DNA of 64,000 bases, taken from NCBI GenBank assembly GCA_013151555.1, contig JAADIA010000079.1, forward strand, positions 1,699-65,698, written 5' to 3'. Made by a program: the position numbers and the translations under genes. Shown piece by piece: positions 2,438-49,764 of this stretch; the stretch's first letter is position 1, and each line of letters opens with the position of its first letter. Source of the stretch: Nitrospirota bacterium. GTDB taxonomy: Bacteria > NPL-UPA2 > JAADIA01. The notes beneath the pieces are model-generated. The model made no database searches. It was not told the DNA's origin and worked only from the letters and a program-made list of their open reading frames with translations.

Positions 2438-2478
2438 CCACAGATTATCGCAAGATTAAATTTAATTCTTATCTGTGT
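2438..2478. repeat. Nested palindrome (cacagat...atctgtg outer, aagattaaa/tttaattctt inner) 3' of the PEPCK-like gene
   Basis: Read directly: ccacagattatcgcaagattaaatttaattcttatctgtg. Confidence 0.5.
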
Positions 2479-2584
2479 AAATCTGGTGTTAATCTCGGGG
2501 TTCATATCTTTTGATTTTTGGAGTTTTATTTTTGTATCTTTAATCCATGTCTATCAGGGGCTAAATATTTTTTGGAGATGAATC

Positions 2585-3778
2585 ATGTCTTTATCAGGGA
2601 GAGCTTCTTTAATCAGTCCTTCACCTACTTTGGCCATAACGGCTAAAGCGAAAGCGATGAAAGCACAGGGTATTGATATAATTGGATTTGGGGCGGGAGA
2701 ACCGGATTTTGATACGCCGGAGCACATTAAAGAAGAAGCCCGGAAAGCTCTTCAAGAGGGTTTTACTAAATATACCCCTGTCTCGGGGATTGAGCCGTTA
2801 AAGAAAGCAATTTGTAAGAAGCTTAAAAAGGATAACGGGTTGAACTACGATCCGGCACAGATAATCGTTTCCTGTGGAGCGAAACATTCTTTATACAATG
2901 CTATCCAAATTATTTGTGAAGAGGGAGATGAAGTTATCCTGCCTTCACCTTATTGGGTGAGTTATCCGGAACAGATAAAATTGTCGGGGGCAAGACCCGT
3001 GATAGTAGAAACCCGTGAGGCAGAGGGATTTAAACTCGGGCCGGAAAAGTTTTTAAAAGAGATAACTTCTCAAACGAAACTTTTGATCCTGAACAGTCCT
3101 AACAATCCTACGGGTGCTGTCTACTCCCGGGATGAGTTGCTGGCTCTTGCCGAGATTGCTATGGAGAAGAAGATTTACGTTATTTCCGATGAAATATATG
3201 AAAAGATAACTTACGATAAGGTAAAACATATCAGCATTGCTTCTTTAAGTCCCCGGATGCAGGATTTAACCGTGGTAGTAAATGGCGTATCCAAAGCATA
3301 TTCCATGACTGGTTGGAGGATAGGCTATGCTGCCGGAAATAAAGAGATTATCGCGGCTATGTCCCGGCTGCAAAGTCATAGCACTTCCAATCCTGATTCT
3401 ATCGCTCAGAGGGCGGCTGGGGAAGCTATTGAGGGAACTCAGGAGCCTCTTAAGGAAATGGTGGCTGAGTTCGAAAAGCGAAGGGATTATCTCGGGGAGA
3501 GACTGAATAACCTGAAAGGTTTTTCCTGTCAGCAACCTCAAGGTGCTTTTTATGCTTTTCCCAATATCTCGGGAGTGCTGGGAAAATTTTTCCGGGGTCG
3601 GAAGATAGAAGATTCTTCTTCTCTGACAGGTTTGCTCCTGGATGAGGCAAGGGTAGCTGTTATTCCCGGGTCGGCCTTTGGACAGGATAATTACCTCAGG
3701 TTTTCTTATGCAACTTCCATGGAGAATATTAGCAAAGGGCTTGACCGGATAGAAGACGTGGTGAACAAGATAAATTAG
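2585..3778 (+). CDS. Aspartate aminotransferase (class I PLP aminotransferase)
   Basis: 397 aa; N-terminal SPSPTLAITAKAKAMKAQGIDIIGFGAGEPDFDTP and PLP-lysine region SKAYSMTGWRIGY typical of AspAT. Confidence 0.85.
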   Translation: MSLSGRASLISPSPTLAITAKAKAMKAQGIDIIGFGAGEPDFDTPEHIKEEARKALQEGFTKYTPVSGIEPLKKAICKKLKKDNGLNYDPAQIIVSCGAKHSLYNAIQIICEEGDEVILPSPYWVSYPEQIKLSGARPVIVETREAEGFKLGPEKFLKEITSQTKLLILNSPNNPTGAVYSRDELLALAEIAMEKKIYVISDEIYEKITYDKVKHISIASLSPRMQDLTVVVNGVSKAYSMTGWRIGYAAGNKEIIAAMSRLQSHSTSNPDSIAQRAAGEAIEGTQEPLKEMVAEFEKRRDYLGERLNNLKGFSCQQPQGAFYAFPNISGVLGKFFRGRKIEDSSSLTGLLLDEARVAVIPGSAFGQDNYLRFSYATSMENISKGLDRIEDVVNKIN

Positions 3779-3812
3779 ACCAGGGACTGAAGAATAAGAA
3801 AAAAGCTGTATA

Positions 3813-4047
3813 GGACGCAGATAAACGCAGATTTAAAGGATTAAAAACACAAGACAACTTTATAATAGTTTCAGATTTTACTCCCTCCTGAGGCGGACAG
3901 GAATTATCAGCAGGGTGAGTTTTAAGAATTAGGAAAAATAAAAAGATTAAACCTTAATTCTTAGTTTATATAAATATTGTCCCGGTAATTTATACTTTGG
4001 GTTCCGGATTTTTAATTATCTGTATCTATCTGCGAATATCTGCGTCC
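3813..4047. repeat. Inverted tandem-unit repeat element (unit ACGCAGAT) with an inner nested palindrome (ttaagaattagg / ccttaattcttag)
   Basis: Forward arm ggacgcagataaacgcagat at 3813-3832; inverted arm atctgtatctatctgcgaatatctgcgtcc at 4018-4047; inner palindrome at 3922-3964. Confidence 0.6.
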
Positions 4048-4116
4048 AAAAAAGAAAGTTTTTATTGTGTTTTTTTGTGTCCTCTGTGGTAACGAAGTTT
4101 TCTTGGAGAAAGAACG

Positions 4117-5013
4117 GTGGAAAGCGAAGTTATATTAAGTACGGATTTAGCGGATGTAAAACTTTTTAAAAAAGGGAAGGTGCGGGATATCTATGACCTC
4201 GGGGATGAGTTTCTCATAGTAGCTACCGATAGGATATCCGCCTTTGATGTTATCCTACCCAACGGTATCCCTTGTAAAGGAAGAGTCTTGACCAAACTGT
4301 CGGAATTCTGGTTTGATTTCACCGGCAATATCGTCAGGAATCATTTAGTTACTACCGACTTCGCTCTTTTTCCGGAAGAACTGCAAAAGTATGTATCTAT
4401 CCTTGAGGGGCGGTCAATGTTGGTTAAGAAGGTGGAAACGGTGCCGGTTGAATGTGTAGTCCGGGGATACTTAGCCGGGTCCGGATGGAAGGAATATAGA
4501 GAGAAAGGTTCCATCTGCGGGATCAGTTTACCCCCCGGCCTCAGGGAGGCGGAGAAGTTACCTCAGCCGATATTTACTCCTTCTACCAAAGCCGACTCTG
4601 GGCATGACCTGAATATAACCGAGGAAGAGATGAGAGGATTAGTGGGAGCAAAAGTGGCGGAGGAGGTAAAGAAGAAAAGCCTGGAGATTTATAAAGTAGC
4701 CGATGAATATGCGGAATCTCGAGGCTTAATTATCTCCGACACCAAATTCGAGTTCGGATTTGTTCGCAATGAAGAGCTCATTCTTATAGATGAAATTCTT
4801 ACTCCGGATTCCTCGCGTTTTTGGGATAAAAACGATTACTGTTTGGGACAATCACCCAAAAATTTTGATAAGCAATTCGTGCGCGATTATTTAGAAACTG
4901 TGAATTGGGATAAGACTCCTCCCGCTCCTTCCCTTCCTCAGGATATTGTCTGGAAGACCAGCGAAAAATATAAGGAAGCCTATAAGAGGCTTACCGGCAA
5001 GATGATTGTATAG
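4117..5013 (+). CDS. purC: Phosphoribosylaminoimidazole-succinocarboxamide synthase (SAICAR synthetase)
   Basis: GTG start; GKVRDIYD...ATDRISAFD motif and length (298 aa) typical of PurC. Confidence 0.85.
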   Translation: MESEVILSTDLADVKLFKKGKVRDIYDLGDEFLIVATDRISAFDVILPNGIPCKGRVLTKLSEFWFDFTGNIVRNHLVTTDFALFPEELQKYVSILEGRSMLVKKVETVPVECVVRGYLAGSGWKEYREKGSICGISLPPGLREAEKLPQPIFTPSTKADSGHDLNITEEEMRGLVGAKVAEEVKKKSLEIYKVADEYAESRGLIISDTKFEFGFVRNEELILIDEILTPDSSRFWDKNDYCLGQSPKNFDKQFVRDYLETVNWDKTPPAPSLPQDIVWKTSEKYKEAYKRLTGKMIV

Positions 5014-5060
5014 CCGGCATTAAGAAGGTGTTCCAAACTGCTGCCAGGTAGGGTTGAAAA

Positions 5061-6386: not shown

Positions 6387-6396
6387 GCAAAAGATC

Positions 6397-9074: not shown

Positions 9075-9177
9075 CGAAGGCTCAAATGCTCCGGATAACA
9101 GCTCTCTTTTCTAAATATGAACCCGGGAGCATTGGAACTATGGAGCACTTTTCAAGTTACGACCGAAGGGAGTTGAT

Positions 9178-11929: not shown

Positions 11930-12054
11930 GAAACGCTAAGTTAACAAGGTCTCCGGTTAATAACTCTCTTTTCTAACTAGCCTGGAGCACTTGGTCTTGC
12001 CTTTTTTTAAGGAAGCTGATATAGTTAACAATCCTGGGAGAAACAAAAAGAGAG

Positions 12055-12762: not shown

Positions 12763-12776
12763 AAGATGAGGAAAAT

Positions 12777-12912
12777 TTGACAGGATTAACAGGATAGACA
12801 GGATAAAATTATTACCTGAATAAGCAAATGAAACAAATTAAAATTAAATTATTACAGGTTTGTCTTTTAGTGGCTCTTTAAAAAATCTTGTTAATCCTGT
12901 TTATCCTGTCAA
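12777..12912. repeat. ACAGGAT-family inverted tandem-unit element (3 units - spacer - 3 inverted units)
   Basis: ttgacaggattaacaggatagacaggat at 12777-12804; atcttgttaatcctgtttatcctgtcaa at 12885-12912; spacer itself holds aattattacctg/aattattacagg. Confidence 0.7.
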
Positions 12913-12942
12913 AAGAAGTAAAGTAACTAAGTGAGGTATTTT

Positions 12943-16282: not shown

Positions 16283-16310
16283 AGGTAAGGTAAAAAAATA
16301 CTATGAAAAC

Positions 16311-16401
16311 CACAGAGACACGGAAGAGCGGAAACACGGAAAAAAGAATTCAGAATGGGAAGAAGTAAAGAGTTGTAAATTAAATTTCCGTGTTTCCGTG
16401 G
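16311..16401. repeat. Inverted tandem-unit element (unit ACGGAAA) between pnp and ileS
   Basis: cacagagacacggaagagcggaaacacggaaaa at 16311-16343; tttccgtgtttccgtgg at 16385-16401. Confidence 0.6.
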
Positions 16402-16443
16402 TTAATTTTTGTAGTATCGTTGTAGAAGGGGAGAGAAATAAGA

Positions 16444-20139: not shown

Positions 20140-20176
20140 CCACAGAGGACGTAGAGAAACAAGACCTGAAACTATT

Positions 20177-20285
20177 CTGACAGGATTTACAGGATGAAAA
20201 CTCGATTGAGTCGACTCTGTTGACAGGATTAAAATTTAAGTATAGAAAAAACAAAAAATCTTGTTAATCCTGTTCATCCCGTCAA
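20177..20285. repeat. ACAGGAT-family inverted tandem-unit element with a central GAGTCGACTC palindrome
   Basis: ctgacaggatttacaggatg at 20177-20196; ttgacaggatt at 20220-20230; atcttgttaatcctgttcatcccgtcaa at 20258-20285. Confidence 0.7.
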
Positions 20286-20418
20286 AAATTTTGTAGGATT
20301 TTCTTCGCATCTTCATTCTTTTATATCTTCATGATTATCAGTTATCTTAAACTTCTGTGTTCATCATCAGTGTCTGATTAGTTTTTCCTTTCTCTGTAGT
20401 TGCCAAGGTGTTCTAATC

Positions 20419-24521: not shown

Positions 24522-24648
24522 GAAATCCCAAACTAAAAATCCCAATACTACCAAATAAATCCCAATACCACCAATTTTTGGGGTTTGGTAATACTTGGAT
24601 TTTTGGTTTACGGCGCAAGACGTTTGGGTTTGGTAACTATTGGGATTT
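24522..24648. repeat. CCCAATAC/TTGGTA-family inverted tandem-unit element 3' of pyrC
   Basis: gaaatcccaaactaaaaatcccaatactaccaaataaatcccaataccaccaa at 24522-24574; inverted tttggtaatacttggatttttgg at 24584-24606 and gtttgggtttggtaactattgggattt at 24622-24648. Confidence 0.65.
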
Positions 24649-24659
24649 AGGATTTAACT

Positions 24660-26424: not shown

Positions 26425-26562
26425 AAGGCACAAAGTGACAAAGGCACATAGGCACAAAGGCACAGAGTAACAAAGGCACAAAGGAAAAACAAGAACCAAC
26501 ACTTTTGTACTTTTTTTGGTTTTTAAACTTAGTGCCTCTGTGCCTTAGTGCCTCTGTGCCTG
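26425..26562. repeat. AAGGCACA-family inverted tandem-unit element 3' of pyrD
   Basis: Five forward units (aaggcacaaag, gacaaaggcacat, aggcacaaagg, cacagag, acaaaggcacaaagg) at 26425-26484; inverted agtgcctctgtgccttagtgcctctgtgcctg at 26531-26562. Confidence 0.65.
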
Positions 26563-31443: not shown

Positions 31444-31478
31444 GAGCACTTAAGTTTTCTTAAGTGCTCTTCTTTTTA
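31444..31478 (+). terminator. Rho-independent terminator (gagcacttaag-tttt-cttaagtgctc + TTCTTTTT)
   Basis: Perfect 11-bp stem, 4-nt loop, U-tract; the only canonical intrinsic terminator seen in the window. Confidence 0.65.
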
Positions 31479-36544: not shown

Positions 36545-36576
36545 TTTGGGTTTGGTATTTATTGGGATTTGGGTTT
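36545..36576. repeat. TTGGTA-TTGGGATTT family arm between tRNA-Leu and tRNA-Val
   Basis: tttgggtttggtatttattgggatttgggttt; same family as 24584-24648. Confidence 0.55.
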
Positions 36577-36658: not shown

Positions 36659-36664
36659 TTATTT

Positions 36665-36753
36665 GACAGAAAACAGAGGACAGATATCAGAAGACAGATG
36701 GATAAAAACAGATGTTTAATATAAGGTTGTTTCTGTTATCTGTCTTCTGTTTA
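36665..36753. repeat. GACAGA-family inverted tandem-unit element between tRNA-Val and thrS
   Basis: gacagaaaacagaggacagatatcagaagacagatggataaaaacagatg at 36665-36714; inverted gtttctgttatctgtcttctgtttag at 36728-36753. Confidence 0.65.
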
Positions 36754-38530: not shown

Positions 38531-38588
38531 GATTAAGAATTAAGAATTAAGAAGAAAAACTTAATACTTACAACTTACAACTTAATTC
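38531..38588. repeat. Inverted tandem-unit element (unit GAATTAAG) immediately 3' of thrS
   Basis: gattaagaattaagaattaagaag then cttaatacttacaacttacaacttaattc. Confidence 0.55.
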
Positions 38589-38631
38589 TGTTTTTTAGAG
38601 GAGGTGACGACTAATAGCTAAAGAAATTAGG

Positions 38632-39126
38632 ATGAATGCCCGGATTAAAGCAGTGGAAGTAAGAGTTATTGAACATGATGGTAGTCAGTCAGGCATAATG
38701 CCGGTGAAGGAAGCTCTAAAGTTGGCTGAAGAGAAAGGCCTGGATTTAGTTGAGGTTGCTCCTCAGGCAAGTCCACCGGTATGCCGTGTTATGGATTACG
38801 GCAAGTATAGGTATGAACAGCGCAAGCGGACTAAGGAAGCCAAGAAAAAGCAGAAGATTACGGAAATCAAAGAGATCAAGTTGCGTCCGAAGATTGAAGA
38901 GCATGACTATCAGGTAAAGCTGCGGCAGGCGCAAAGGTTCTTGAAAAGCGGAGATAAGACAAAAGTTACTATCGTGTTTAGGGGCAGGGAAATGGCTCAT
39001 CTGGATATCGGGAAGAAGCTTTTAGACCGATTCGCCGGCGACATGACCGATTTGGGGGTAGTGGAAGTGGCTGCCAGAATGGAAGGTAGGAGTATGGGGA
39101 TGATCCTTGCTCCTCATAAGCAATAG
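38632..39126 (+). CDS. infC: Translation initiation factor IF-3
   Basis: IKAVEVRVIEHDGSQSGIM...PPVCRVMDYGKY canonical IF3; an in-frame AUA at 38614 with ideal SD spacing may be the true (non-canonical) start. Confidence 0.85.
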   Translation: MNARIKAVEVRVIEHDGSQSGIMPVKEALKLAEEKGLDLVEVAPQASPPVCRVMDYGKYRYEQRKRTKEAKKKQKITEIKEIKLRPKIEEHDYQVKLRQAQRFLKSGDKTKVTIVFRGREMAHLDIGKKLLDRFAGDMTDLGVVEVAARMEGRSMGMILAPHKQ

Positions 39127-39187
39127 AAGATAGAAAATAGAAGACAGGGAGTAGAGGACCGAAGAGTTTGACTTCTATCATCTGTGG
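39125..39187. repeat. GACAGA/AGATAGA-like inverted element 3' of infC (arm overlaps infC stop)
   Basis: agaagatagaaaatagaagacaggg at 39125-39149; inverted cttctatcatctgtgg at 39172-39187. Confidence 0.5.
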
Positions 39188-39201
39188 TAAGGAGAACGAA
39201 A

Positions 39202-39399
39202 GTGCCTAAGTTGAAAACTAAGCGAGGAGCAGCCAAAAGGTTCAAGGTGACCAAATCGGGAAGGATTGGAAGAAAAAAAGCTTGTGCCAGTCATATTCTG
39301 ACGAAGAAGTCCTCTAAACGTAAACGGGGACTAAGGCAGGCAGACACTGTTAGCAAAGCGGATAGAAAAGCAATTAAACTTCTGCTACCTTATGCTTGA
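39202..39399 (+). CDS. rpmI: 50S ribosomal protein L35
   Basis: GTG 39202 with AAGGAG 7 nt upstream gives [22 protein letters not shown]. Confidence 0.85.
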
Positions 39400-39406
39400 A
39401 ACAGAT

Positions 39407-39577
39407 GGTTGAAAGTTAAGGTTGTAAAGTCTAAAGTAAAAAAACTTTTGGAAGAAGATATTTGTAAGTTTGAGATATAAGGTTTTTAAGTATAAGCCCC
39501 GGGTTGTCTAAGATTTAGGCAAGGTTTTTATTGTTTTCTTGCTTTTAACTTTCGACCTTCAATTTTAAACTATCAAC
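39407..39577. repeat. GGTTGAAAGTTAAGG-family inverted element between rpmI and rplT
   Basis: ggttgaaagttaaggttgtaaagtctaaagt at 39407-39437; inverted cttttaactttcgaccttcaattttaaactatcaac at 39542-39577. Confidence 0.6.
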
Positions 39578-39602
39578 TGTCTTTTGAGAAGGAGAATAAA
39601 AA

Positions 39603-39974
39603 ATGCCTCGAGTTAAGAGTAGTGTTACCTCCAGAAGACGGCACAAAAAATTTTTAAAGCAAGCCAAAGGTTACTGGGGAGGGAGAAGTAGGCTTTATCG
39701 GACAGCGCGGGAAGCAGTAGAGAGAAGTTGGAGCTATGCTTTTCGAGACAGAAAGGTAAAGAAGAGAGATTTTAGAGGTTTATGGATTTCCCGTATCAAT
39801 GCCGCGGCCCGTATCCATAACCTTAGTTATAGCAAGTTCATATATGGTCTTAATAAAGCTAATGTCGGCTTGAACAGGAAAGTACTGGCCGACCTGGCGG
39901 TGAGGGAACCCACTACTTTCAAAGAACTGGCCAAGGTAGCTAAAGATGGTTTAAAGTTAAAAACTGAAGGTTGA
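39603..39974 (+). CDS. rplT: 50S ribosomal protein L20
   Basis: [35 protein letters not shown] canonical L20; last residues (GLKLKTEG) and the stop are encoded by a repeat arm. Confidence 0.9.
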
Positions 39975-40656: not shown

Positions 40657-40839
40657 AAATATTCAAGAATGCTTTGTCTGCTGAGTAGGTGTTTCGGTTA
40701 TTCGAAAATTGTCCTTCGACTTTGCTCAGGGTGGTGAGCTTTTCGAAACCATTTCGAATTTCGTGCTTCGAGCTTCGGGATTCGGATTTTTTTAATAGTA
40801 TCTAAAGTTCAAGGATAATGAATATTAGCAGGAGATAAG

Positions 40840-41493: not shown

Positions 41494-41621
41494 AAAATTT
41501 CCTTCTCTCTCCTCTAAAGCAGGCAGATACCGATATTCGGATAAATTTAGGATTAATGGAATGATTCGGAGAATTAATTTGCGGTTTAAAATTTCCAATC
41601 TTCAATTTACTGTTCAGGTTT

Positions 41622-43127
41622 ATGACCGTAGGGAGCGGACTTGAAATGTCTCCCCTCCGCCAGCGATATTTCATCATAATTAGTTATGTGGGACTCCTGA
41701 TCTTAGGATTAGGAGGGATTCTCCTTATTCCTTTAGTCAGCCTTTTCTTTTCTCCGTCGGACATAAAGTACCTTAATAGCTTTCTCATCCCTTCCTTAGC
41801 TGCTATCGTCGGGGGATTTTTTCTCTGGAGGGGGTTCCGTTCGCGAGTAGAGGTTCCTCCTTTAACTGCTCCCGATGCAGCTCTCATCGTTACCTTTGTC
41901 TGGATAGCAGCCGTTATCCTGGGTGCGCTTCCCTTTATCCTCTCGCAGATATTAAGCCCTCTGGATGCTATCTTCGAGTCTATGAGCGGTTGGACAACTA
42001 CGGGTTTGACCATGGTTAATCCTGATAAGATTCCTTCCCTCTTCCTTTTCTGGAGGAGCCTCATGCAGTTTGTGGGAGGAGCGGGTCTAGCCGTAATTAT
42101 GCTCTCGGCCATCGTTGGCTCTTTAGGTCCCGGGGTCTATGAAGCAGAAGCCCGAAGTGACCATTTAGTTCCCCATGTGATGCATACGGCAAGAATGATC
42201 ATTAAAATCTATTTAGCTTATTATATCGTTGGAGTTGGCCTCTATTTTCTGGCGGGGATGAACTTTTTTGACTCTCTCAATCAGGCTATGTCCGGGTTAG
42301 CTACCGGCGGTTTTTCCACTCACTCGGAAAACATTGCTTACTGGAACAATCTCTCTATAGAGGCAGTAAGTCTGCTTCTCATGCTCTTGGGAACGACAAA
42401 TTTTGCTACTCACCATGTTCTCCTTTCCAGCCGGGGAAGGAAGGGTTTCAGAGATACGGAACTCAAACTAATGAGTTGGTTAATCATCGTAGTTACTCCC
42501 CTGATTGCCTTCAGTCTGTTCAAAACCATATTAGGAAACTTAGGAGATAGCTTCCGGAAAGGGTTGTTCCAGGTAGTCTCCGCCCTTTCGGGGACCGGTT
42601 ATTCAACGACTACTCTCAACAACTGGAGCGAATTTTCTCTTTTTCTCCTGATTATCTTGATGATTGTTGAGGGAGGAACCGGTTCTACTGCGGGGGGAAT
42701 AAAACTTTACCGGGCCGCTATTATTATTAAATCCATCTGGTGGTGGATCAAGAAACAGTTCTATCCTCCCTCTGTGGTTATACAAAGAGCTATCTGGAGA
42801 CGGGGGGAAAGACTGGAAGTTCAAGATAAGCATATTCAAGCGGTGACGGGTTTCATCGGACTTTATCTTCTTACCTATCTTGTAGGAGTGCTCATTTTTT
42901 TAGGGAGCGGTTTCTCCCTCCGTCAGTCCCTATTCGAGTTTGCTTCAGCTATAGGGACGGTAGGATTATCGTTGGGGATTACCCGCCCGGATATGCCTGT
43001 TACCGCCAAGGTGGCGGAGATCTTCGGGATGTGGTTGGGAAGACTGGAATTTATAGCTATCTTCCATGCTTTTATCCGAATTGGACGAGACCTGAAAGTA
43101 GGAAGAAATAGAAGAGGAAAAGAATGA
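41622..43127 (+). CDS. TrkH/KtrB-family K+ transporter membrane subunit
   Basis: 501 aa polytopic protein with repeated selectivity-filter-like GTTGLT / GLATGG / GGTGST / GLS motifs. Confidence 0.7.
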   Translation: MTVGSGLEMSPLRQRYFIIISYVGLLILGLGGILLIPLVSLFFSPSDIKYLNSFLIPSLAAIVGGFFLWRGFRSRVEVPPLTAPDAALIVTFVWIAAVILGALPFILSQILSPLDAIFESMSGWTTTGLTMVNPDKIPSLFLFWRSLMQFVGGAGLAVIMLSAIVGSLGPGVYEAEARSDHLVPHVMHTARMIIKIYLAYYIVGVGLYFLAGMNFFDSLNQAMSGLATGGFSTHSENIAYWNNLSIEAVSLLLMLLGTTNFATHHVLLSSRGRKGFRDTELKLMSWLIIVVTPLIAFSLFKTILGNLGDSFRKGLFQVVSALSGTGYSTTTLNNWSEFSLFLLIILMIVEGGTGSTAGGIKLYRAAIIIKSIWWWIKKQFYPPSVVIQRAIWRRGERLEVQDKHIQAVTGFIGLYLLTYLVGVLIFLGSGFSLRQSLFEFASAIGTVGLSLGITRPDMPVTAKVAEIFGMWLGRLEFIAIFHAFIRIGRDLKVGRNRRGKE

Positions 43128-44713
43128 ACGGTCCTAAGGAAGAACTCCGGACGGTAGTGGAACGGCTTAATCCTCAAACGAGATGCTTGCTGACGAGGAT
43201 GAAAGCCGGCGATGCTTATCTCCCTTCGCAGTTGCAAGAGCTGCTGGGGCAGGGAACTAAAGCCAGGGCTGTGGGGTCTGTGGGATGGTTGATTGCTAAT
43301 GGTTTAGCTGAGGAGACGGGTGAGGAGGACTCTAAAAGATATGTGTCGTTAGCCGATAAAGGACAGGCTTTTCAGGAAAAAGGAATTCCTGAAGGACGGA
43401 TAGTTAAGCTTTTGAAAGAAAAAGATAAGTTGACTATTCAAGAACTTGGAGAGAAGTTAGCTTTACCTAAAGAGGAATTGAATCCTATTCTTGGAACCAT
43501 GAAGAAGGAAAAAGTTATCTCATTTGAAAGCGGGGGGCGGGTGGCTTTGGGAGAAGAGGTAGCTATTAGGAAAGCAACCGAAAGGTACGGTAAGGTTAAT
43601 AATCTTTTAGACCGGGTGAAATCTGAAACAAGAGTGGATTTGCATGATATGCCTGAAGATGAAGAAGAAATTATTAAAGAGATGAGTCGGAAACGAGGTA
43701 AGGGTAAAGCTATCTTCCGCATAGTTCGAGCAGTAGAGATGAGATATAAACTAACCCCGAGAGGGAAAGAAGCTCAAGCCATATGTGGAGATATTAGGGA
43801 AGGCGAGGAGATAGGTTCTCTTACTCCCGAGATTCTGGAGAAAGGATTATGGCGGAACCGAACGTTCCGGAAATATGATATAGGCACCCGACCTCCCAAA
43901 TGGACTTACGGAAAGAAACATCCCTATGGACTCTTTCTGGATTTCGTGAGGAGAAAATTGGTAGCTATGGGTTTCGAAGAGATGAGAGGGCGGATGGTGG
44001 AGACTGAGTTTTGGAACAACGATGCCCTTTTTATGCCCCAGGACCATCCGGCCCGGGAAATACACGACGTCTATTTTGTTAAAGAACCTAAATACTCGCA
44101 AGAATTGCCTGAAGACTTAGTTGAGAAAGTAGCCAAGACCCATGAAACCGGCTGGAAGACCGGTTCTACCGGTTGGGGATATAAATTTGATAAAGAGAGA
44201 ACATCCCGTTTCGTTCTCAGGAGCCAGGGTACAGCTAACTCTGTTCGGATGTTGGCATCTCAACCCAAAATTCCGGGCAAATATTTTGCTATTGCCCGCT
44301 GCTTCCGTTACGATCAGGTAGATGCCACTCATGCTTCGGACTTTAATCAGATAGAGGGGATAGTTCTTTCCCGGGAGATGAATTTCCGGCACCTCTTGGG
44401 ACTTCTGAAACTTTTCGCTCTGGAGATAGCCGGCTCCAGTGAGGTTAGGTTTGTCCCTTCCTATTTCCCTTTTACGGAACCTTCCGTGGAGATCCAGTTC
44501 AAGCACAAAGAGCTTGGCTGGATGGAATTAGGAGGAGCAGGAATCTTCCGGAAAGAGGTTACTATTCCTTTAGGGATAGAAGTTCCGGTTATTGCCTGGG
44601 GGCTGGGTCTGGATAGGATGGCTATGGTAGCTCTCTCCCTTGACGACATCAGGGACCTCTTTACCTCTGACCTGGGGAAAGTGCAGGAGATGAAATTTAA
44701 GCAAAATATATAA
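43124..44713 (+). CDS. pheS: Phenylalanyl-tRNA synthetase alpha subunit, archaeal/eukaryotic type (long N-terminal winged-helix extension)
   Basis: 529 aa, against about 340 for bacterial-type PheS; class II motifs 2 and 3 in the C-terminal half (FRYDQVDATHASDFNQIEG, GWGLGLDRMAMV). Confidence 0.8.
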   Translation: MNGPKEELRTVVERLNPQTRCLLTRMKAGDAYLPSQLQELLGQGTKARAVGSVGWLIANGLAEETGEEDSKRYVSLADKGQAFQEKGIPEGRIVKLLKEKDKLTIQELGEKLALPKEELNPILGTMKKEKVISFESGGRVALGEEVAIRKATERYGKVNNLLDRVKSETRVDLHDMPEDEEEIIKEMSRKRGKGKAIFRIVRAVEMRYKLTPRGKEAQAICGDIREGEEIGSLTPEILEKGLWRNRTFRKYDIGTRPPKWTYGKKHPYGLFLDFVRRKLVAMGFEEMRGRMVETEFWNNDALFMPQDHPAREIHDVYFVKEPKYSQELPEDLVEKVAKTHETGWKTGSTGWGYKFDKERTSRFVLRSQGTANSVRMLASQPKIPGKYFAIARCFRYDQVDATHASDFNQIEGIVLSREMNFRHLLGLLKLFALEIAGSSEVRFVPSYFPFTEPSVEIQFKHKELGWMELGGAGIFRKEVTIPLGIEVPVIAWGLGLDRMAMVALSLDDIRDLFTSDLGKVQEMKFKQNI

Positions 44714-44738
44714 GTTTGCTACCTCCTTCGGAAGTTAA

Positions 44739-44824
44739 GACTATAGACTATAGACCATAGACTAAACGAGGGGAAAAGGGATGGTGAAAAGTCTAAAGTC
44801 TGATGTCTATGGTCTATTGTCTGA
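44739..44824. repeat. Inverted tandem-unit element (unit CTATAGA) between pheS and pheT
   Basis: gactatagactatagaccatagactaaa at 44739-44766; inverted agtctaaagtctgatgtctatggtctattgtctga at 44790-44824. Confidence 0.6.
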
Positions 44825-44849
44825 ATTGAGTTCTTGAAAAGAGGTAAGA

Positions 44850-46508
44850 ATGCCAACTATTGAAATAAGAAAAACGGATTTTGATAAGTTCCTGAAGCCC
44901 ATAATAGAAGAACAGGGAAGAGGACGGGAAGAGACTCTTTCTCGCATTAAGGGAGAGATAAAAGGCGAGGATAACGATTGCTATAAGATAGAAATAGCCG
45001 ATACCAACAGGCCGGATCTCTTCACTGTTGAAGGTATTGCCAGAGAACTTCTGGGGATTTTCAAAGAGGAAAAGTTTAAGGATGATTTTCTGAATGAAAG
45101 TCCGAAATATAAGATAGAGGTCCTGGAATCCGTGCGGGAGGTAAGACCTTTTGTAGGAGCTCTGGTTGTCAGGAACTTAACTGTTGATGAAGATACTCTG
45201 CATTCTTTAATAAGCATCCAGGAAAAACTGGGTGAGACCCTGGGGAAAAGGAGAAAGAGGGTTGCCATTGGTGTTTATGAAGCCGGTTCCATCGAATTCC
45301 CGGTACGATACGGAGCTTTTGATCCTCAATCTTATAAGTTTGTTCCCCTGGAGTTCTCCGAAGAGATGACTTTGGATGAGGTTTTGAGGAAACATCCTAA
45401 AGGTATTGAATATGGGCATTTGTTGAAAGGTTGCCAAGGTTATCCTCTTCTCCTCGATGCTAACCGGAGAGTTCTTTCCCTCCCTCCCATCGTCAATAGC
45501 CGGGAAATGGGAGAGGTAAGGCCGGGAGCGAACCATCTCTTCGTGGAAGCAACAGGGACAGACCAGAAGGCGGTTATTCTGGCCTTAAATATTATCTCTT
45601 CCGCTCTCTCTCTCCGGGGAGGGACCATAGAAAGATGTGAGACGGTTTATCCCTACGCGACTCCCCTGGGAGAAAATCAGGTGACTCCCAGGCAAATGAA
45701 CAAGGCGTTGAGGGTAGATATGGAGGAGCTGAAACAGCTACTGGGTATCGATATTAGTCGGCAAGAGGCAGCTGATTGTCTAAGGCGATTAGGATATGAA
45801 ATCCAGGGGCAAGGAGAGAAATTCCAGGCCCTCGCCCCCTATTACCGTAGCGATGGTATGCATGAACACGATATAATAGAAGATATAGCTATAGTGAAAG
45901 GTTATGAGAACTTCTCTCCTCTACCTTTAAGCGATTTCACTATAGGAGGGTTATCCAGGGAACAGGAGATAGTGGATAAAGTAAGGGAGATTCTCGTCGG
46001 GATGGGATTTCAGGAGATAATATCTAACGCCTTGGTGAATCGGAGGGAACTCTCTCAGCGGATGAGATGTGAGACCGAGGCCATCGAAGTAGATAACGTG
46101 ATGACTGAGACCTACTCTGTATTGAGAAGTTGGCTTATTCCCTGCCTGCTCAAAGTGGAGAGGGAAAGTTCTCAGGTGGAATATCCTCATAAGGTCTTTG
46201 AAGTGGGTGAGGTGGTTGTCAAGGAAAATGGGCCCAGGGAAGAGATAAGACTGGCCGTTCTCATCTCGAGCGGAGAATTCGGTTTCACCGATATCCACCG
46301 GATATTGGAAAGCCTGATGGAGGAATTATCCTATCCTTATCATCTGAAAGAAGCTTGTCATAGTTCATTTATAGAAGGCCGTTTCGGTGAAATAGAGAGT
46401 GGACATAAGTCTGTGGGAATCATTGGCGAAGTACATCCGGAGGTCTTATCTAACTGGGCTGTCAAAATGCCTGTTTCCGCATTTGAGCTTAGGATTTACC
46501 CCTATTAA
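44850..46508 (+). CDS. pheT: Phenylalanyl-tRNA synthetase beta subunit, archaeal/eukaryotic type (short form)
   Basis: 552 aa, against about 800 for bacterial PheT; B3/B4 and B5 regions recognisable; no tRNA-binding N-terminal OB domain. Confidence 0.75.
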   Translation: MPTIEIRKTDFDKFLKPIIEEQGRGREETLSRIKGEIKGEDNDCYKIEIADTNRPDLFTVEGIARELLGIFKEEKFKDDFLNESPKYKIEVLESVREVRPFVGALVVRNLTVDEDTLHSLISIQEKLGETLGKRRKRVAIGVYEAGSIEFPVRYGAFDPQSYKFVPLEFSEEMTLDEVLRKHPKGIEYGHLLKGCQGYPLLLDANRRVLSLPPIVNSREMGEVRPGANHLFVEATGTDQKAVILALNIISSALSLRGGTIERCETVYPYATPLGENQVTPRQMNKALRVDMEELKQLLGIDISRQEAADCLRRLGYEIQGQGEKFQALAPYYRSDGMHEHDIIEDIAIVKGYENFSPLPLSDFTIGGLSREQEIVDKVREILVGMGFQEIISNALVNRRELSQRMRCETEAIEVDNVMTETYSVLRSWLIPCLLKVERESSQVEYPHKVFEVGEVVVKENGPREEIRLAVLISSGEFGFTDIHRILESLMEELSYPYHLKEACHSSFIEGRFGEIESGHKSVGIIGEVHPEVLSNWAVKMPVSAFELRIYPY

Positions 46509-46588
46509 AAGGCGGGATTGCCCAGATTAGGACAAAGATTTCGCTCTGGTGATTGGCTATTAGTTTAATGCTAAGGAAAATCAAAAAC

Positions 46589-46739
46589 GGACAGGATTAA
46601 CAGGATGTACAGGATAATTTTCTTAAAGAATTTTAGTTGGGGAAACTTTACAAAACTTTTTGAATTTTGTAAAATCAGCTTTTATCCTTTGATTTAATTA
46701 AAAGAATAAAAATCCGGTAAATCCAGTAAATCCTGTCAA
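46589..46739. repeat. ACAGGAT-family inverted tandem-unit element 3' of pheT
   Basis: ggacaggattaacaggatgtacaggat at 46589-46615; inverted atccggtaaatccagtaaatcctgtcaa at 46712-46739; spacer contains tttacaaaa/ttttgtaaa palindrome. Confidence 0.7.
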
Positions 46740-46783
46740 TTTTAGAGTTGCCGCTGTAGACGGCCTAAGTTTGGAGAGAAGTC

Positions 46784-46960: not shown

Positions 46961-47243
46961 ACTTACCCAGGTAACGATATTCGGAACGGAATATTCTCTC
47001 AAGGGGGACGAAGACCGGGAATATATGGAAGAATTGTCTAATTATGTAAACAAGAGGATGAAAGAAGTTTCTGAACATTCCGCTTTAGTATCCACAGCTA
47101 AAGTAGCAGTGCTGGCCGCTCTTCGTATTGCCGATGAATTATATCAATTGAGGAAAGAGAAAGATGGAATCAGAACAGATGGTTCTGCGGAAAAGAGGAT
47201 CAGGAAACTGATAGAGATGATTGACCACGAAGTTGAAGGTTGA
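46950..47243 (+). CDS. zapA: Cell division protein ZapA
   Basis: 97 aa; VTIFGTEYSLKGDEDREYMEELSNYVNKRM matches the ZapA fold signature. Confidence 0.7.
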   Translation: MKDKLTQVTIFGTEYSLKGDEDREYMEELSNYVNKRMKEVSEHSALVSTAKVAVLAALRIADELYQLRKEKDGIRTDGSAEKRIRKLIEMIDHEVEG

Positions 47244-47249
47244 TTTTTC

Positions 47250-47279
47250 TTGACTCTGCTCTCTGGACTGGGGTAATAT
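47250..47279 (+). promoter_or_regulatory. Possible sigma70 promoter (TTGACT - 18 nt - TAATAT) upstream of conserved element copy 2 / ffh
   Basis: Hexamers read directly; spacer slightly long. Confidence 0.3.
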
Positions 47280-47315
47280 ATAAGTGGCCTGTCTAAGTCA
47301 GCTTTACTCAGGCCT

Positions 47316-47408
47316 TGCTTGAAATTGGAACAGGGTGGGAAAGCTCCCCCCTGCAATTTTTAATTAAGATGCTAAGTGTTTTAGTTATATGGATTTTTGG
47401 GTGGATTA
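47316..47408 (+). other. Conserved ~90-nt element, copy 2 (candidate structured RNA / dispersed repeat)
   Basis: Aligns with 31303-31389 (gcttg.aattggaa...tttaattaa...taag.gtttta.ttat..gg...tttggg.ggatta) with a compensatory hairpin. Confidence 0.4.
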
Positions 47409-47459
47409 GGCGAGTTAAATTTATGAATTGCAAATTTTACGGTTACGAACGGAGCGAGT

Positions 47460-48782: not shown

Positions 48783-48862
48783 GATAAACAAAACATTTGA
48801 AACATCTTGGTATTTTCGGGGAAATGGTAACTGTAAATTTTAATAGCATAGGGAGGAAGGAG

Positions 48863-49198
48863 ATGAAATTGAGAAAGAGTTTTCTTTGTTTGGTCGTGGG
48901 AGGCTTGGCCGCAGTTATATTTGCAACCTTGGCACCGGAAGTTCAGGCAGCTAATCCTTTTAATAAAGTGGGACGAGGGTTGGGAAATATAGTCATTGCT
49001 CCTGTGGAGATACCTGTGTCCATGGTCAGCGAGGCTAAGAAGAATCCCTTATTGGGTTTGGTAATAGGACCGATAATCGGAGCAGTCAATTGTGTGACCA
49101 GGGCCACTGCCGGAATCGTTGAGCTGGTTACTTTTCCAGTCCCTCCTTACGATCAACCCCTTTATGAGAAAGATCTTGGGGAGACCGTCTGGGAGTGA
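48863..49198 (+). CDS. Small secreted hypothetical protein (signal peptide; resembles small exosortase-associated TIGR04073-like proteins)
   Basis: ATG 48863 after GGGAGGAAGGAG; signal peptide MKLRKSFLCLVVGGLAAVIFATLAPEVQA; motifs NKVGRGLGNIVIAPVEIP, TRATAGIVELVTFPVP. Confidence 0.4.
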   Translation: MKLRKSFLCLVVGGLAAVIFATLAPEVQAANPFNKVGRGLGNIVIAPVEIPVSMVSEAKKNPLLGLVIGPIIGAVNCVTRATAGIVELVTFPVPPYDQPLYEKDLGETVWE

Positions 49199-49227
49199 AT
49201 CTGCCTCGCCCTAAAGGGCAAGGCATC

Positions 49228-49350
49228 ATTGTAAATTGAAGATTGGAAATTGGAAATTTTAAAATGGAAGAGAAGAAATGAGATTCAATCTTTTTTGATT
49301 TATTTCAATAAGTTTAAAATTTACAATTCTCAATTTACAATTCGAGCGAA
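49228..49350. repeat. Inverted tandem-unit element (unit ATTGGAA / TTGTAAAT) upstream of rpsP
   Basis: attgtaaattgaagattggaaattggaaatttt at 49228-49260; inverted aaaatttacaattctcaatttacaattc at 49323-49350. Confidence 0.6.
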
Positions 49351-49377
49351 GCGAGTTAACTCAGAGGAGGTGAATCA

Positions 49378-49665
49378 GTGGCTGTAGTTATTAGATTGAA
49401 AAGAATGGGAGCGAAGAAAAGACCTTTTTATCGATTGATCGTAGCTGATTCCCGTATGCCCCGGGATGGCCGGTTTATCGAGACTATTGGTCTATATAAT
49501 CCTTTAGAAAATCCTTCTAAGATTTCTGTTAGTCAGGAAAAAGCTCTTTATTGGCTGAAACAGGGAGCGAAACCATCTCCGACAGCAAAACAGATTCTGA
49601 GGAAGAGCGGAGTTTGGGAGAAGTTTAAACCACAGAAAGTACAGAAGACAGAGAATAAAGAATAG
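49378..49665 (+). CDS. rpsP: 30S ribosomal protein S16
   Basis: GTG start; [43 protein letters not shown] canonical; C-terminal tail QKTENKE encoded by repeat arm. Confidence 0.9.
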
Positions 49666-49764
49666 AAGACAGAGAACAGATGACAGAAATAATCTTATAT
49701 TGAACGGCTGTTTTTATACGTCTGTCTCTTGATTTCTGACATCTGATGTCTGTTTCCTCTGTGG
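49664..49764. repeat. GACAGA-family inverted tandem-unit element 3' of rpsP
   Basis: agaagacagagaacagatgacagaaat at 49664-49690; inverted cgtctgtctcttgatttctgacatctgatgtctgtttcctctgtgg at 49719-49764. Confidence 0.7.

What the first reader, a model, noticed from the sequence alone, without database searches (positions are those of the whole stretch)
2438..49764. Pervasive locus-specific 'tandem-unit inverted repeat' elements in nearly every intergenic gap
More than 20 intergenic regions each carry the same architecture. There are 2-5 tandem copies of a 7-11 bp unit, a 40-200 bp spacer (often with its own inner palindrome), then the same units in inverted orientation. Units differ between loci (ACGCAGAT, ACAGGAT, ACGGAAA, CCCAATAC, AAGGCACA, GACAGA, GAATTAAG, GGTTGAAAGTTAAGG, CTATAGA, ATTGGAA) but recur as families at distant loci. 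Almost all sit immediately 3' of a gene. Classical hairpin+U-tract terminators are nearly absent; only one clean example was found (31444-31478). These elements may therefore be the main terminator or mRNA-stabilising hairpins of this genome, or a multi-family REP/BIME/MITE-like system. The tandem-unit arms suggest expansion by slippage. I do not recognise this architecture from well-studied genomes.
Basis: seen in the sequence. Interest (0 to 1): 0.72.

Follow-up and report, generated by a model that had tools for sequence, protein, structure and literature searches.

The report
Foldback repeat elements filling operon gaps
About 40% of the larger gaps between genes in this uncultured bacterium hold small hairpin-forming repeats whose two arms are tandem 7-10-base units; they belong to a dozen families that recur at other sites, are swapped or resized between close relatives, resemble the little-understood STRR hairpins of cyanobacteria, and are not transcription terminators.

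Summary
Of about 41 gaps of at least 60 nt, 11 carry statistically robust hairpins with tandem-unit arms. Six more are weaker, and one claimed case fails. The units are not locus-specific. Whole elements, including their non-repetitive spacers, recur at unrelated loci and in related genomes.

In a relative that is 93-97% identical, two of six element-bearing gaps hold a different family, two differ by one unit, and two are conserved. The pheS-pheT gap carries four different families in four genomes. Elements nest inside each other's loops. Filled and empty orthologous sites exist.

They sit inside conserved operons (pheST, infC-rpmI-rplT, the pyr genes), have no U-tract, and show no sense-strand G·U bias. 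I therefore read them as dispersed, probably mobile foldback repeats that change size by slippage, not as terminators. Any effect on mRNA is inferred.

The closest known relatives are the cyanobacterial STRR hairpins. REP/REPIN, STRR and terminator membership tests fail; for MITEs two features are met, but target duplication is inconclusive and no transposase partner was found. One family (AGGCACA) occurs in metagenome contigs spanning 36-68% G+C. There it sometimes encloses a 23S_rRNA_IVP four-helix-bundle gene. The mobilising enzyme is unknown.

The parts
2436..2500 (.). E01, weak hairpin of the CCACAGATTA family (left TAACCACAGATTATCGCAAGATTA, right ATCTGTGTAAATCTGGTGTTAATCT)
   Evidence: RNAfold z=-2.1. 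Homologous to an element nested inside an ACGCAGAT hairpin in L291.
3806..4094 (.). E02, composite element. ACGCAGAT arms at 3813-3832 and 4028-4047, a 195-nt inner part with a TTAAGAATT...AATTCTTA core, and an outer right terminus CCTCTGTGG at 4081-4089.
   Evidence: z=-3.8. Homologous over about 310 nt to the holA-rpsT gap of L291, a different locus in another genome. Simple ACGCAGAT hairpins without the inner part occur in L001 and L291.
12776..12913 (.). E03, ACAGGATNN x3 / NNATCCTGT x3 hairpin with an 80-nt spacer. It runs from 14 nt after the upstream stop codon to 17 nt before proC.
   Evidence: 29-nt arms, 86% complementary. z=-7.2. Its right arm matches E05 over about 34 of 37 nt, including the degenerate first unit.
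16310..16405 (.). E04, CACGGAA family, bounded by AACCACAGAG ... CCGTGGTTAA
   Evidence: z=-4.1. The same family fills the pheS-pheT gap of L168.
20140..20404 (.). E05, composite element. Outer CCACAGAGG (20140, directly after the TAA stop of lspA) and CTCTGTAGTTGCC (20392-20404). Inner ACAGGAT arms within about 20178-20292.
   Evidence: z=-3.8 for 20169-20292. Coordinates; alignment.
24523..24658 (.). E06, AAATCCCAAT(AC) family, nested double hairpin in the pyrC-pyrK gap
   Evidence: z=-4.8 for the core and -3.1 for the full element. The orthologous gap is empty (14 nt) in L311 and holds a GTCGATGG/CTATGGAC hairpin in L310.
26425..26562 (.). E07, AAGGCACA x7 / TGTGCCT x4 hairpin in the pyrD-pyrF gap
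   Evidence: TRF 7.5 copies. z=-6.0. 81% identical across arms and spacer to the pheS-pheT element of L002.
36546..36573 (.). Half element: only the right arm of the AAATCCCAAT family, between tRNA-Leu and tRNA-Val
   Evidence: Sequence TTGGGTTTGGTATTTATTGGGATTTGGG
36663..36753 (.). E08, GACAGAR family hairpin between tRNA-Val and thrS
   Evidence: 22-nt arms, 91% complementary. z=-6.8.
38531..38592 (.). E09, GAATTAA x3 array with a partial inverted arm. It starts at the base after the thrS stop codon.
   Evidence: z=-1.9, weak. The close relative L290 has 2 units instead of 3.
39123..39190 (.). E10, ATAGAAG family. The infC stop codon TAG lies in the first unit, and the right end CTGTGGTAAGGAG supplies the rpmI ribosome-binding site.
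   Evidence: z=-1.7, weak. Conserved, with 4 substitutions over the 68 nt, in L289.
39396..39590 (.). E11, a GGTTGAAAGTTAAGG-type hairpin lying between single remnant units (aaacagat / actgtctttt) of a GACAGAA hairpin
   Evidence: z=-2.8. The close relative L289 has an intact 85-nt GACAGAA hairpin in this gap.
40657..40829 (.). E12, about 173-nt insertion between the two trkA genes. TIR AATATTCA/TGAATATT, flanking direct repeat AGGAGTAG/AGGAGATAAG, internal TTCGAA and GCTTCGR units.
   Evidence: The empty site GGAGTAAGATG is seen in L291 and L293. L289 has one GCTTCGR unit fewer. z=-1.7.
44735..44826 (.). E14, AGACTAT x4 / GTCTATG hairpin in the pheS-pheT gap
   Evidence: z=-4.7. The same gap holds CACGGAA (L168), ACGCAGAT (L001) and AAGGCACA (L002) elements.
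46575..46752 (.). E15, ACAGGAT family hairpin after pheT
   Evidence: z=-3.4. The orthologous copy in L168 has the same left arm and a diverged right arm.
49228..49342 (.). E16, ATTGGAA/ATTGTAA family hairpin upstream of rpsP
   Evidence: z=-4.0. Right-arm-like copies occur at window 41590-41612, in L293 (rplT-trkA gap) and in L291 (trkA-trkH gap).
49630..49771 (.). E17, ACAGAAG family bounded by AACCACAGA ... CCTCTGTGGTTAAGG. Its first 26 nt encode the C-terminus of S16.
   Evidence: TRF 6.9 copies. z=-2.4. Termini.
51644..51731 (.).
   Evidence: 26-nt arms, 88% complementary. dG -46.8, z=-9.5.

Best explanation
These are a population of small non-coding foldback repeats in at least a dozen sequence families. 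Each is a long imperfect palindrome whose arms are short tandem arrays of 7-10-nt units.

Shown: they are dispersed DNA copies, not structures built separately at each locus. They turn over quickly, by loss or gain of single units, by one element lying inside the loop of another, and by whole-gap replacement. They occupy the space from the stop codon (sometimes supplying it) to just before the next gene's ribosome-binding site.

Inferred: they spread by a MITE-like, trans-mobilised insertion process with a preference for stop-codon-proximal DNA and for existing hairpins. The enzyme is unidentified. Slippage, plus template switching across the hairpin, keeps the two arms complementary while units change. 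Because the elements lie inside operons, they are probably co-transcribed. They would then fold into 20-40-bp RNA stems, which could act as exonuclease barriers or RNase III sites, as shown for E. coli REP and proposed for cyanobacterial STRR hairpins. That effect is a by-product or secondary use, not the reason they exist. They are not intrinsic terminators.
For: Dispersal. E07 (pyrD-pyrF gap) is 81% identical, spacer included, to the pheS-pheT element of L002. E02 aligns over about 310 nt with the holA-rpsT gap of L291. The E03 and E05 right arms match over about 34 of 37 nt, including a degenerate unit.

Turnover. A relative from JGI sample 3300003886 is 93-97.5% identical over 9.4 kb, and colinearity breaks only at the pheS-pheT and rpmI-rplT gaps. 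Those two gaps hold other families. Two further gaps differ by exactly one unit. The pheS-pheT gap has 4 families in 4 genomes, and infC-rpmI and rpmI-rplT have 4 or more each.

Nesting. E01 exists alone in the window and also inside the loop of an ACGCAGAT hairpin in L291. Simple and composite ACGCAGAT elements coexist. E11 sits between remnant units of the hairpin that is intact in L289.

Filled versus empty sites. These are seen for trkA1-trkA2 (with a TIR and a flanking direct repeat) and for pyrC-pyrK.

Not terminators. The elements are internal to operons, have no U-tract, and terminator-like sites are at the shuffle expectation.

Not an artefact. The same architecture is seen in independent NCBI, JGI, ENA and Logan assemblies.

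Density. 7.8-19.7 per 100 kb in this lineage against 0.33 in controls.
Against: No transposase, RAYT or other candidate mobilising gene lies in the window: about 55 ORFs were scanned against Pfam. No autonomous copy was found in this lineage.

Target-site duplications are not evident for the typical tandem-unit hairpins. The one clear TIR-plus-direct-repeat case (E12) is atypical of the class.

A dozen unrelated arm sequences are hard to reconcile with one sequence-specific transposase.

Whole-gap replacement, including the last codons and the ribosome-binding site, could instead reflect allelic exchange between strains that carry old polymorphisms.

Some gaps are occupied by a hairpin in every relative examined (pheS-pheT 4 of 4, pyrD-pyrF 3 of 3; for pheS-pheT, sequences for pyrD-pyrF). 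That is also what selection for a hairpin at those positions would produce.
Confidence: 0.6

Rival explanations
1. The hairpins are selected RNA elements. Each operon gap needs a long stem-loop that stabilises the upstream cistron, serves as an RNase III processing site, or terminates or attenuates transcription without a U-tract. The sequence is free to vary as long as a hairpin remains.
For: The same gaps hold a stable hairpin in every relative examined, although the sequences are unrelated: pheS-pheT dG -29 to -52 in 4 genomes, infC-rpmI -13 to -52. The unrelated GC-rich sequence in the pyrD-pyrF gap of L310 and L311 also contains long inverted repeats by eye; it was not folded. The elements stop short of the downstream ribosome-binding site. 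In L310 a tandem-unit hairpin followed by T7 sits between convergent genes. Published proposals for STRR hairpins are of this kind (PMC2670836).
Against: There is no excess of G·U pairs on the sense strand (78 vs 63, p=0.24), and 10 of 27 elements fold better as antisense. The right arm of E15 diverges in L168 while the left arm is unchanged, and there are no compensating changes on the left arm. Empty orthologous gaps exist. Elements also lie in divergent promoter regions and as half elements. Termination between pheS and pheT, or between rpmI and rplT, would be harmful. The window's convergent junctions carry none.
Confidence: 0.15
2. The elements are generated locally. Replication slippage creates tandem units in AT-rich spacers, and intrastrand template switching (quasi-palindrome correction) copies them into an inverted arm. 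No movement between loci occurs.
For: Unit-number polymorphism between close relatives. Arrays whose unit drifts along their length in metagenome loci, for example L257. Direct-only arrays such as AACTGCTA x10 in L291. Related unit variants are matched on both arms: AAGGCACA in the window (E07, 26425-26562) and AAGGCGCC/AAGGCGCA in L291.
Against: Non-repetitive spacers and composite layer orders are shared by copies at unrelated loci and in different genomes. A gap cannot drift from AGACTAT to CACGGAA units while its flanks diverge by only 2.5-3.5%.
Confidence: 0.1
3. The unit arrays are binding sites for a protein, on DNA or RNA. Candidates are a nucleoid or regulatory protein, a translation factor acting on purine-rich repeats, or the four-helix-bundle 23S_rRNA_IVP proteins. 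The inverted arrangement reflects the symmetry of binding.
For: The identical AGGCACA unit occurs in contigs spanning 36-68% G+C and in viral contigs, often as direct arrays just upstream of start codons. PF05635 genes lie between such arms in several loci. [quoted passage not shown]
Against: A dozen unrelated unit sequences coexist in about 100 kb of this one lineage. No PF05635 gene is present in the window or in the relatives' loci. Different families replace one another at the same gap without any change in the flanking genes.
Confidence: 0.1
4. The repeats are assembly or sequencing artefacts of a metagenome-assembled genome.
For: The window comes from a MAG. Several metagenome contigs end inside such arrays.
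Against: Orthologous elements are recovered, with point substitutions, in independent assemblies from other samples and pipelines. They lie between intact genes.
Confidence: 0.01

Closest known systems
Cyanobacterial STRR (short tandemly repeated repetitive) sequences and their hairpins, e.g. in the hupS-hupL gap of Anabaena/Nostoc
   Same: Tandem units of about 7 nt in intergenic DNA. The units are often followed by their inverted copies, so that a hairpin can form between co-transcribed genes. There are several unit families per genome and dozens of copies, and the function is unknown, with transcript stability or translational coupling proposed (PMC2670836; PMC2408588 Table 3, ttgtcagttgtcagttgtca / ccactgactactgac).
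   Different: None of the canonical STRR units occurs in tandem here. The host is not a cyanobacterium. Units here are 7-10 nt. Rapid family replacement at orthologous gaps, nesting, shared termini (TAACCACRGA) and presence in contigs spanning 36-68% G+C were not mentioned in the passages of the papers I could read.
REP / BIME / REPIN elements of Proteobacteria (mobilised by RAYT transposases)
   Same: Intergenic, operon-internal palindromic repeats in many copies. Inverted doublets form long hairpins, clusters are mosaic or nested, occupancy of a given gap varies between strains, and mRNA stabilisation is known for some (PMC3116915; the remainder from my own knowledge).
   Different: Here each arm is a tandem array, not itself a small palindrome. 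There is no GTAG head (0 found), no RAYT gene in the window, and many unrelated families coexist.
MITEs (miniature inverted-repeat transposable elements), including modular ones such as pneumococcal BOX and Neisseria Correia elements
   Same: Small, non-coding, with terminal inverted repeats. Orthologous sites can be filled or empty, and the elements can supply stop codons or ribosome-binding sites to flanking genes. BOX also has a variable number of tandem internal modules (own knowledge).
   Different: No target-site duplication is seen for the typical members, no parental IS was identified, and the whole arm is a short-unit array rather than a unique TIR.
Eukaryotic foldback (FB) transposons
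   Same: Long inverted arms made of tandem short repeats in variable number (own knowledge).
   Different: FB elements are eukaryotic and kilobase-sized. This is an analogy of form only.
23S rRNA intervening sequences carrying 23S_rRNA_IVP (PF05635) genes
   Same: A cassette bounded by inverted repeats and inserted into a transcribed region. AGGCACA-type arms enclose PF05635 genes in L176, L240 and L298. IVS stems are cut by RNase III (bioRxiv 10.1101/2024.02.27.582315).
   Different: No PF05635 gene lies in the window or the relatives' loci. Here the elements sit between protein genes, not in rRNA. The link is shown for one family only, and in other organisms.
TAACTGA direct repeats of Beggiatoaceae, Cyanobacteria and Bacteroidetes
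   Same: Heptamer arrays in intergenic DNA ending just upstream of start codons, present in distant phyla (PMC4679880). Direct-only AACTGCTA arrays in L291 look similar.
   Different: Those repeats form a single family and are almost never inverted (1 of 170 sets).

Membership tests
Cyanobacterial STRR | Short (about 7 nt) units tandemly repeated in intergenic DNA, in many dispersed copies | tested here: met
   TRF arrays of period 7-10 are enriched in intergenic DNA: 26 of 48 in 11.3% of the sequence, p=5e-13. Families recur at several loci.
Cyanobacterial STRR | The canonical unit sequences (CCCCAGT, TTGGTCA, CAACAGT; also TTGTCAG) | tested here: not met
   No tandem occurrence of any of them in the window.
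Cyanobacterial STRR | Host is a filamentous or heterocystous cyanobacterium | tested here: not met
   The proteins are labelled 'Nitrospirae bacterium'. The nearest named PyrD is from candidate division NPL-UPA2, at 79% identity.
REP / REPIN | A 20-40-nt imperfect palindrome with a conserved GTAG/GTGG head | tested here: not met
   No GTAG-headed palindromes in the window. The arms are tandem arrays, not palindromes.
REP / REPIN | A cognate RAYT (Y1 HUH transposase, PF01797) in the genome, flanked by REPs | tested here: inconclusive
   None among about 55 window ORFs scanned against Pfam. The rest of the genome could not be reached.
MITE | Terminal inverted repeats | tested here: met
   All elements have inverted arms. 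Several families share the termini TAACCACRGA ... TCYGTGGTTA.
MITE | Target-site duplication | tested here: inconclusive
   Only E12 shows a flanking direct repeat (AGGAGTAG / AGGAGATAAG) next to an empty site. None is evident for E03, E07 or E14.
MITE | Presence/absence polymorphism at orthologous sites | tested here: met
   The trkA1-trkA2 gap is filled in the window and L289 and empty in L291 and L293. The pyrC-pyrK gap is filled in the window and L310 and empty in L311.
MITE | An autonomous partner element with the same ends that encodes a transposase | tested here: not met
   None in the window or the relatives' loci. The only coding versions found, in other organisms, carry a PF05635 four-helix-bundle gene, which is not a known transposase.
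Rho-independent terminator | A short GC-rich stem followed directly by a U-tract | tested here: not met
   The consensus scan lists only one hit at an element end: a weak 5-pair stem at 16388-16401, the end of E04. Terminator-like sites are at the shuffle expectation. The only clean terminator is 31444-31469.
Rho-independent terminator | Position at the ends of transcription units | tested here: not met
   The elements lie within pheS-pheT, infC-rpmI-rplT, pyrD-pyrF and trmD-rplS. They are absent from the window's convergent junctions.
Known RNA families (Rfam 15) | A match at gathering score | tested here: not met
   Only three tRNAs matched in the whole window.
23S rRNA IVS / 23S_rRNA_IVP cassette | Inverted-repeat stem enclosing a PF05635 ORF | tested here: not met
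   No PF05635 homologue in the window or close relatives by tblastn. The feature is met only in foreign loci L176, L240 and L298.

The most novel reading that the evidence does not exclude
Tandem-unit foldback elements are an undescribed, cross-phylum class of bacterial mobile DNA. They insert at the stop-codon / ribosome-binding-site junction of operons and into the apex of existing hairpins. They diversify their arms by slippage plus cross-arm copying. Their coding form carries the enigmatic 23S_rRNA_IVP four-helix-bundle gene (related to DGR Avd). If so, cyanobacterial STRRs, rRNA intervening sequences and these hairpins would be one phenomenon with one still unknown mobilisation mechanism.
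Probability: 0.2. Interest if true: 0.8.

Novelty: new variant of a known kind. Interest (0 to 1): 0.6.

Why it matters
Small intergenic palindromic repeats are among the least understood components of bacterial genomes. For the STRR type, neither function nor origin has been settled in 35 years.

This lineage offers an unusually dense and fast-evolving set: about 30% of intergenic DNA, and 2 of 6 compared gaps replaced at roughly 4% sequence divergence. That makes the birth, nesting, resizing and replacement of such elements directly observable by comparing strains.

The elements also alter gene ends by supplying stop codons, C-terminal extensions and ribosome-binding sites. They are a practical hazard for MAG assembly and gene calling.

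The recurrence of one unit (AGGCACA) in contigs spanning 36-68% G+C, in viral contigs, and around 23S_rRNA_IVP genes gives a concrete handle on how such repeats spread.

Tried and rejected
1. The pattern ACAGGATNN x3, used as a probe for relatives, is non-specific. It gave more than 120 viral hits, most plausibly 9-nt-period coding repeats such as collagen-like genes (not inspected), so I dropped it.

2. Recovering the rest of the 70.4-kb source contig failed. Window proteins are not in the gene-position index.

3. A test for mirror symmetry of unit variants (A/G) between the two arms found only 3 usable elements and was uninformative.

4. A test for sense-strand G·U bias was not significant.

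5. Full-text searches for the unit strings found no microbial paper. The Elhai 2008 and Vioque 1997 papers on cyanobacterial small repeats are not held in the library.

6. I considered and rejected several readings. CRISPR-like arrays do not fit, because there are no unique spacers between direct repeats. CsrA-sponge repeats do not fit, because only the ACAGGAT unit resembles ACARGGAUG. SD / anti-SD mimicry does not fit, because only about half of the families have GGA/GAGG cores.

7. 'Purine-rich arm always first' is not a rule. L310 carries the AGACTAT-type family with the opposite polarity.

8. One alignment of the pyrE-yicC junction was mis-registered and is not used.

Full report
**Source and setting.** The window is 64 kb of a 70,406-nt contig of a metagenome-assembled genome deposited as 'Nitrospirae bacterium'. 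Eight of ten proteins queried are recorded under NCBI accessions between NOX97634 and NOX97685. The nearest named PyrD is from candidate division NPL-UPA2, at 79% identity. The IF3 relatives next in line, at 63-65%, are Methylomirabilis and Firmicutes MAGs. G+C is about 45%. Genes run on the + strand up to 54.6 kb, where GC skew is strongly positive, and on the - strand afterwards. The genes are housekeeping: purC, ileS, lspA, the pyr operon, coaBC, thrS-infC-rpmI-rplT, trkA/H, an archaeal-type pheST, ffh-rpsP-rimM-trmD-rplS, and type IV pilus genes. No transposase, RAYT or 23S_rRNA_IVP gene lies in the window.

- I printed every gap and scored it in three ways.
- A strict detector required an exact 6-mer in at least 2 tandem copies, with its reverse complement in at least 2 tandem copies within 350 nt. 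It found 6 loci against 0 in 30 dinucleotide shuffles.
- Smith-Waterman alignment of each gap against its own reverse complement exceeded shuffles at z>3.5 in about 13 of 41 gaps of at least 60 nt.
- RNAfold gave z of -3.4 or lower for 11 elements, at 3806, 12776, 16316, 20169, 24523, 26425, 36663, 44735, 46575, 49228 and 51644. It gave z between -1.7 and -2.8 for six more, at 2436, 38531, 39123, 39396, 40690 and 49630.
- The 41.5-kb candidate was not supported, at z=+0.3.
- Tandem arrays are concentrated in the 11.3% of the window that is intergenic: 26 of 48, p=5e-13.
- The elements occupy roughly 30% of the intergenic DNA.
- Classical terminators are indeed scarce. Terminator-like sites match the shuffle expectation in all three segments scanned, and 31444-31469 is the only clean one.
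- Rfam recognises nothing in the window but three tRNAs.

**The units are families, not locus-specific.**
- E07 (pyrD-pyrF gap) is 81% identical, across arms and spacer, to the pheS-pheT element of a related MAG, L002.
- E02 (aminotransferase-purC gap) aligns over about 310 nt with the holA-rpsT gap of L291. The two share three layers: outer CCACAGA/TCTGTGG, middle ACGCAGAT, and an inner TTAAGAATT core. Simple ACGCAGAT hairpins without the inner layers occur in L001 and elsewhere in L291.
- The right arms of E03 and E05 match over about 34 of 37 nt, including a degenerate first unit.
- Several families share the termini TAACCACRGA ... TCYGTGGTTA.
- In about 100 kb of this lineage I count at least a dozen families.

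**Turnover between relatives.** Contigs from JGI sample 3300003886 (L168, L289, L290) are 93-97.5% identical to the window over 9.4 kb. Colinearity breaks only at the pheS-pheT and rpmI-rplT gaps.
- pheS-pheT holds an AGACTAT hairpin in the window and a CACGGAA hairpin in L168. Everything from the last one or two codons of pheS to the ATG of pheT differs.
- rpmI-rplT holds an intact 85-nt GACAGAA hairpin in L289. The window has a 180-nt GGTTGAAAG-type hairpin lying between single remnant GACAGA units.
- Two other gaps differ by exactly one unit: GAATTAA 3 vs 2, and GCTTCGR 2 vs 1. Two more are conserved, with substitutions.
- In more distant relatives (PheS 73-81% identical, IF3 82-90%), the same gaps hold yet other families, including direct-only AACTGCTA arrays. 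pheS-pheT has four families in four genomes.
- Filled and empty orthologous sites exist. The two trkA genes are 1 nt apart in L291 and L293. In the window they are separated by a roughly 173-nt insertion with an 8-nt TIR and a flanking direct repeat, AGGAGTAG/AGGAGATAAG.
- The pyrC-pyrK gap is 14 nt in L311, holds E06 in the window, and holds a different hairpin in L310. There the pyrC reading frame now runs 17 codons into the element.
- E01 stands alone in the window and lies nested in another family's loop in L291.

**What they are not.** They are not the main terminators. They sit inside operons whose genes must be co-expressed, they lack U-tracts, and the window's convergent junctions carry none. 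There is also no sign that the sense transcript in particular is under selection to fold. G·U pairs number 78 on the + strand against 63 on the - strand (p=0.24), and 10 of 27 elements fold better as antisense. The right arm of E15 has diverged in L168 while the left arm is unchanged, with no compensating changes on the left arm.

**Distribution beyond this lineage.**
The contigs span 36-68% G+C.
- About a quarter have tandem TGTGCCT copies 16-400 nt downstream, often bounded by CCACAGAGG ... CCTCTGTGG.
- A few hits are eukaryote-like microsatellites.
- These contigs also carry other unit families, such as CGGATTG, AGTGACR and ACGGATTT. The density is 8.3 per 100 kb against 0.33 in a 600-kb control set.
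- In L176 and L240 the arms enclose a 23S_rRNA_IVP (PF05635) four-helix-bundle gene.
- Remnants of such a gene lie inside ORF-less hairpins in four other loci.
- Homologues of the gene, named Planctomycetota or Phycisphaerae, again sit between AGGCACA-type arms in an aconitase-LOG gap.
- In all four loci where the orientation could be read, the gene is co-directional with its neighbours.
- The same arrays, mostly direct, occur in 21 viral contigs, usually just upstream of start codons.

**Comparison with the literature.** Filamentous cyanobacteria have STRR sequences: 7-nt tandem units that can form hairpins, for example between hupS and hupL. Their function is unknown, and transcript stability or translational coupling has been proposed (PMC2670836; PMC2408588). 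This is the closest known architecture, so it is not unknown from studied genomes. The TAACTGA repeats of Beggiatoaceae are direct repeats of a single family (PMC4679880). 23S_rRNA_IVP genes have been noted between operon genes in cas loci (PMC3936711) and remain functionally uncharacterised. No paper in the library contains the unit strings found here.

**Interpretation.**
- Shown: dispersed families; shared spacers and layer orders at unrelated loci; replacement, nesting and unit-number change between close relatives; filled and empty sites; positions inside operons without terminator features.
- Inferred: trans-mobilised, MITE-like spread with a preference for stop-codon-proximal DNA and existing hairpins; slippage plus cross-arm copying as the source of arm diversity; co-transcription and RNA stem formation, with possible effects on processing or stability.
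- Unknown: the enzyme.
- Main rival: direct selection for a hairpin at particular gaps. This would explain why some gaps are always occupied, and it cannot be excluded without transcript mapping.

Noticed in passing
L176 16-560; L240 3919-4377; L298 1500-1960 (also L299-L305); L306 1870-1925: 23S_rRNA_IVP (PF05635, bAvd-like) four-helix-bundle genes lie between AGGCACA-type tandem-unit inverted arms, in gaps between co-directional genes. Fragments of such genes lie inside ORF-less hairpins in L192, L203, L207 and L223.
   Followed up: partly
L312-L332 (IMG/VR viral contigs): AGGCACA arrays occur in 21 predicted viral contigs. Most are direct repeats ending a few bases upstream of a start codon, and only L327 has an inverted partner. 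Viruses are a possible route for spread, or the arrays may have a role as translation leaders.
   Followed up: partly
window 9088-9136, 11950-11995, 52970-52987: Three gaps share a non-tandem motif CTCCGG(A/T)TAAYARCTCTCTTTTCTAA ... CCYGGAGCA, which can form a GCTCCGG/CCGGGAGC hairpin. It is a separate small dispersed repeat.
   Followed up: no
window 49630-49655; 39124-39126; L310 about 4215-4258: Coding sequences run into the elements. The last codons of rpsP are element sequence. The infC stop codon is part of the first ATAGAAG unit. In L310, pyrC has lost its original stop and reads 17 codons into a hairpin. PheS C-termini differ (QNI*, QT*, QSP*, K*) according to which element follows.
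   Followed up: partly
window 43124-46508: PheRS is of the archaeal/spirochaete type (alpha 529 aa, beta 552 aa with B1/B5 domains). Outside its own clade, the nearest relatives are Spirochaetota and Woesearchaeota.
   Followed up: no
window 47244-47459: The zapA-ffh gap is almost identical in the 96%-identical relative L168. It has a promoter-like TTGACT-18-TAATAT followed by a GC-rich segment that could fold. There is no Rfam match. It may be an unannotated small RNA or leader.
   Followed up: no
window 41555-41621 and L291 7700-7815: The trkA-trkH leader is conserved between distant relatives and includes a right-arm-like ATTGGAA-family segment (AAAATTTCCAATCTTCAATTTAC) that also forms the right arm of E16. 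It may be a functional leader from which a repeat family derives.
   Followed up: no
L310 10617-10698: Between convergent genes, a hairpin whose right arm is GGAGCAC x3 is followed by T7. This is a tandem-unit element in a terminator-like setting.
   Followed up: no
L310 6060-6217 and L311 8786-8940: The pyrD-pyrF gap of two relatives holds a conserved GC-rich sequence of about 150 nt with long inverted repeats (seen by eye, not folded). It is unrelated to E07 but lies between the same boundaries (TGA ... TTAAGGTAAAAAAATG).
   Followed up: no
L001 3480-3790; L002 3100-3250: After pheT, relatives carry repeated GTAGTTGCC(C)AATTT..TTGGGC units and a shared 'ATAAACATC..TTAGCTTGATAAATCAAGCAACTAC' module. 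These are REP-like, GTAG-headed palindromes that are absent from the window.
   Followed up: no
window 24847-24872 and 25240-25265: An inverted pair of GGTTAAAG-type tandem units, 367 nt apart, lies inside the pyrK reading frame. The 3' end of rplT (39950-39974) also resembles the E11 unit. Repeat-like sequence may have been absorbed into coding DNA.
   Followed up: no
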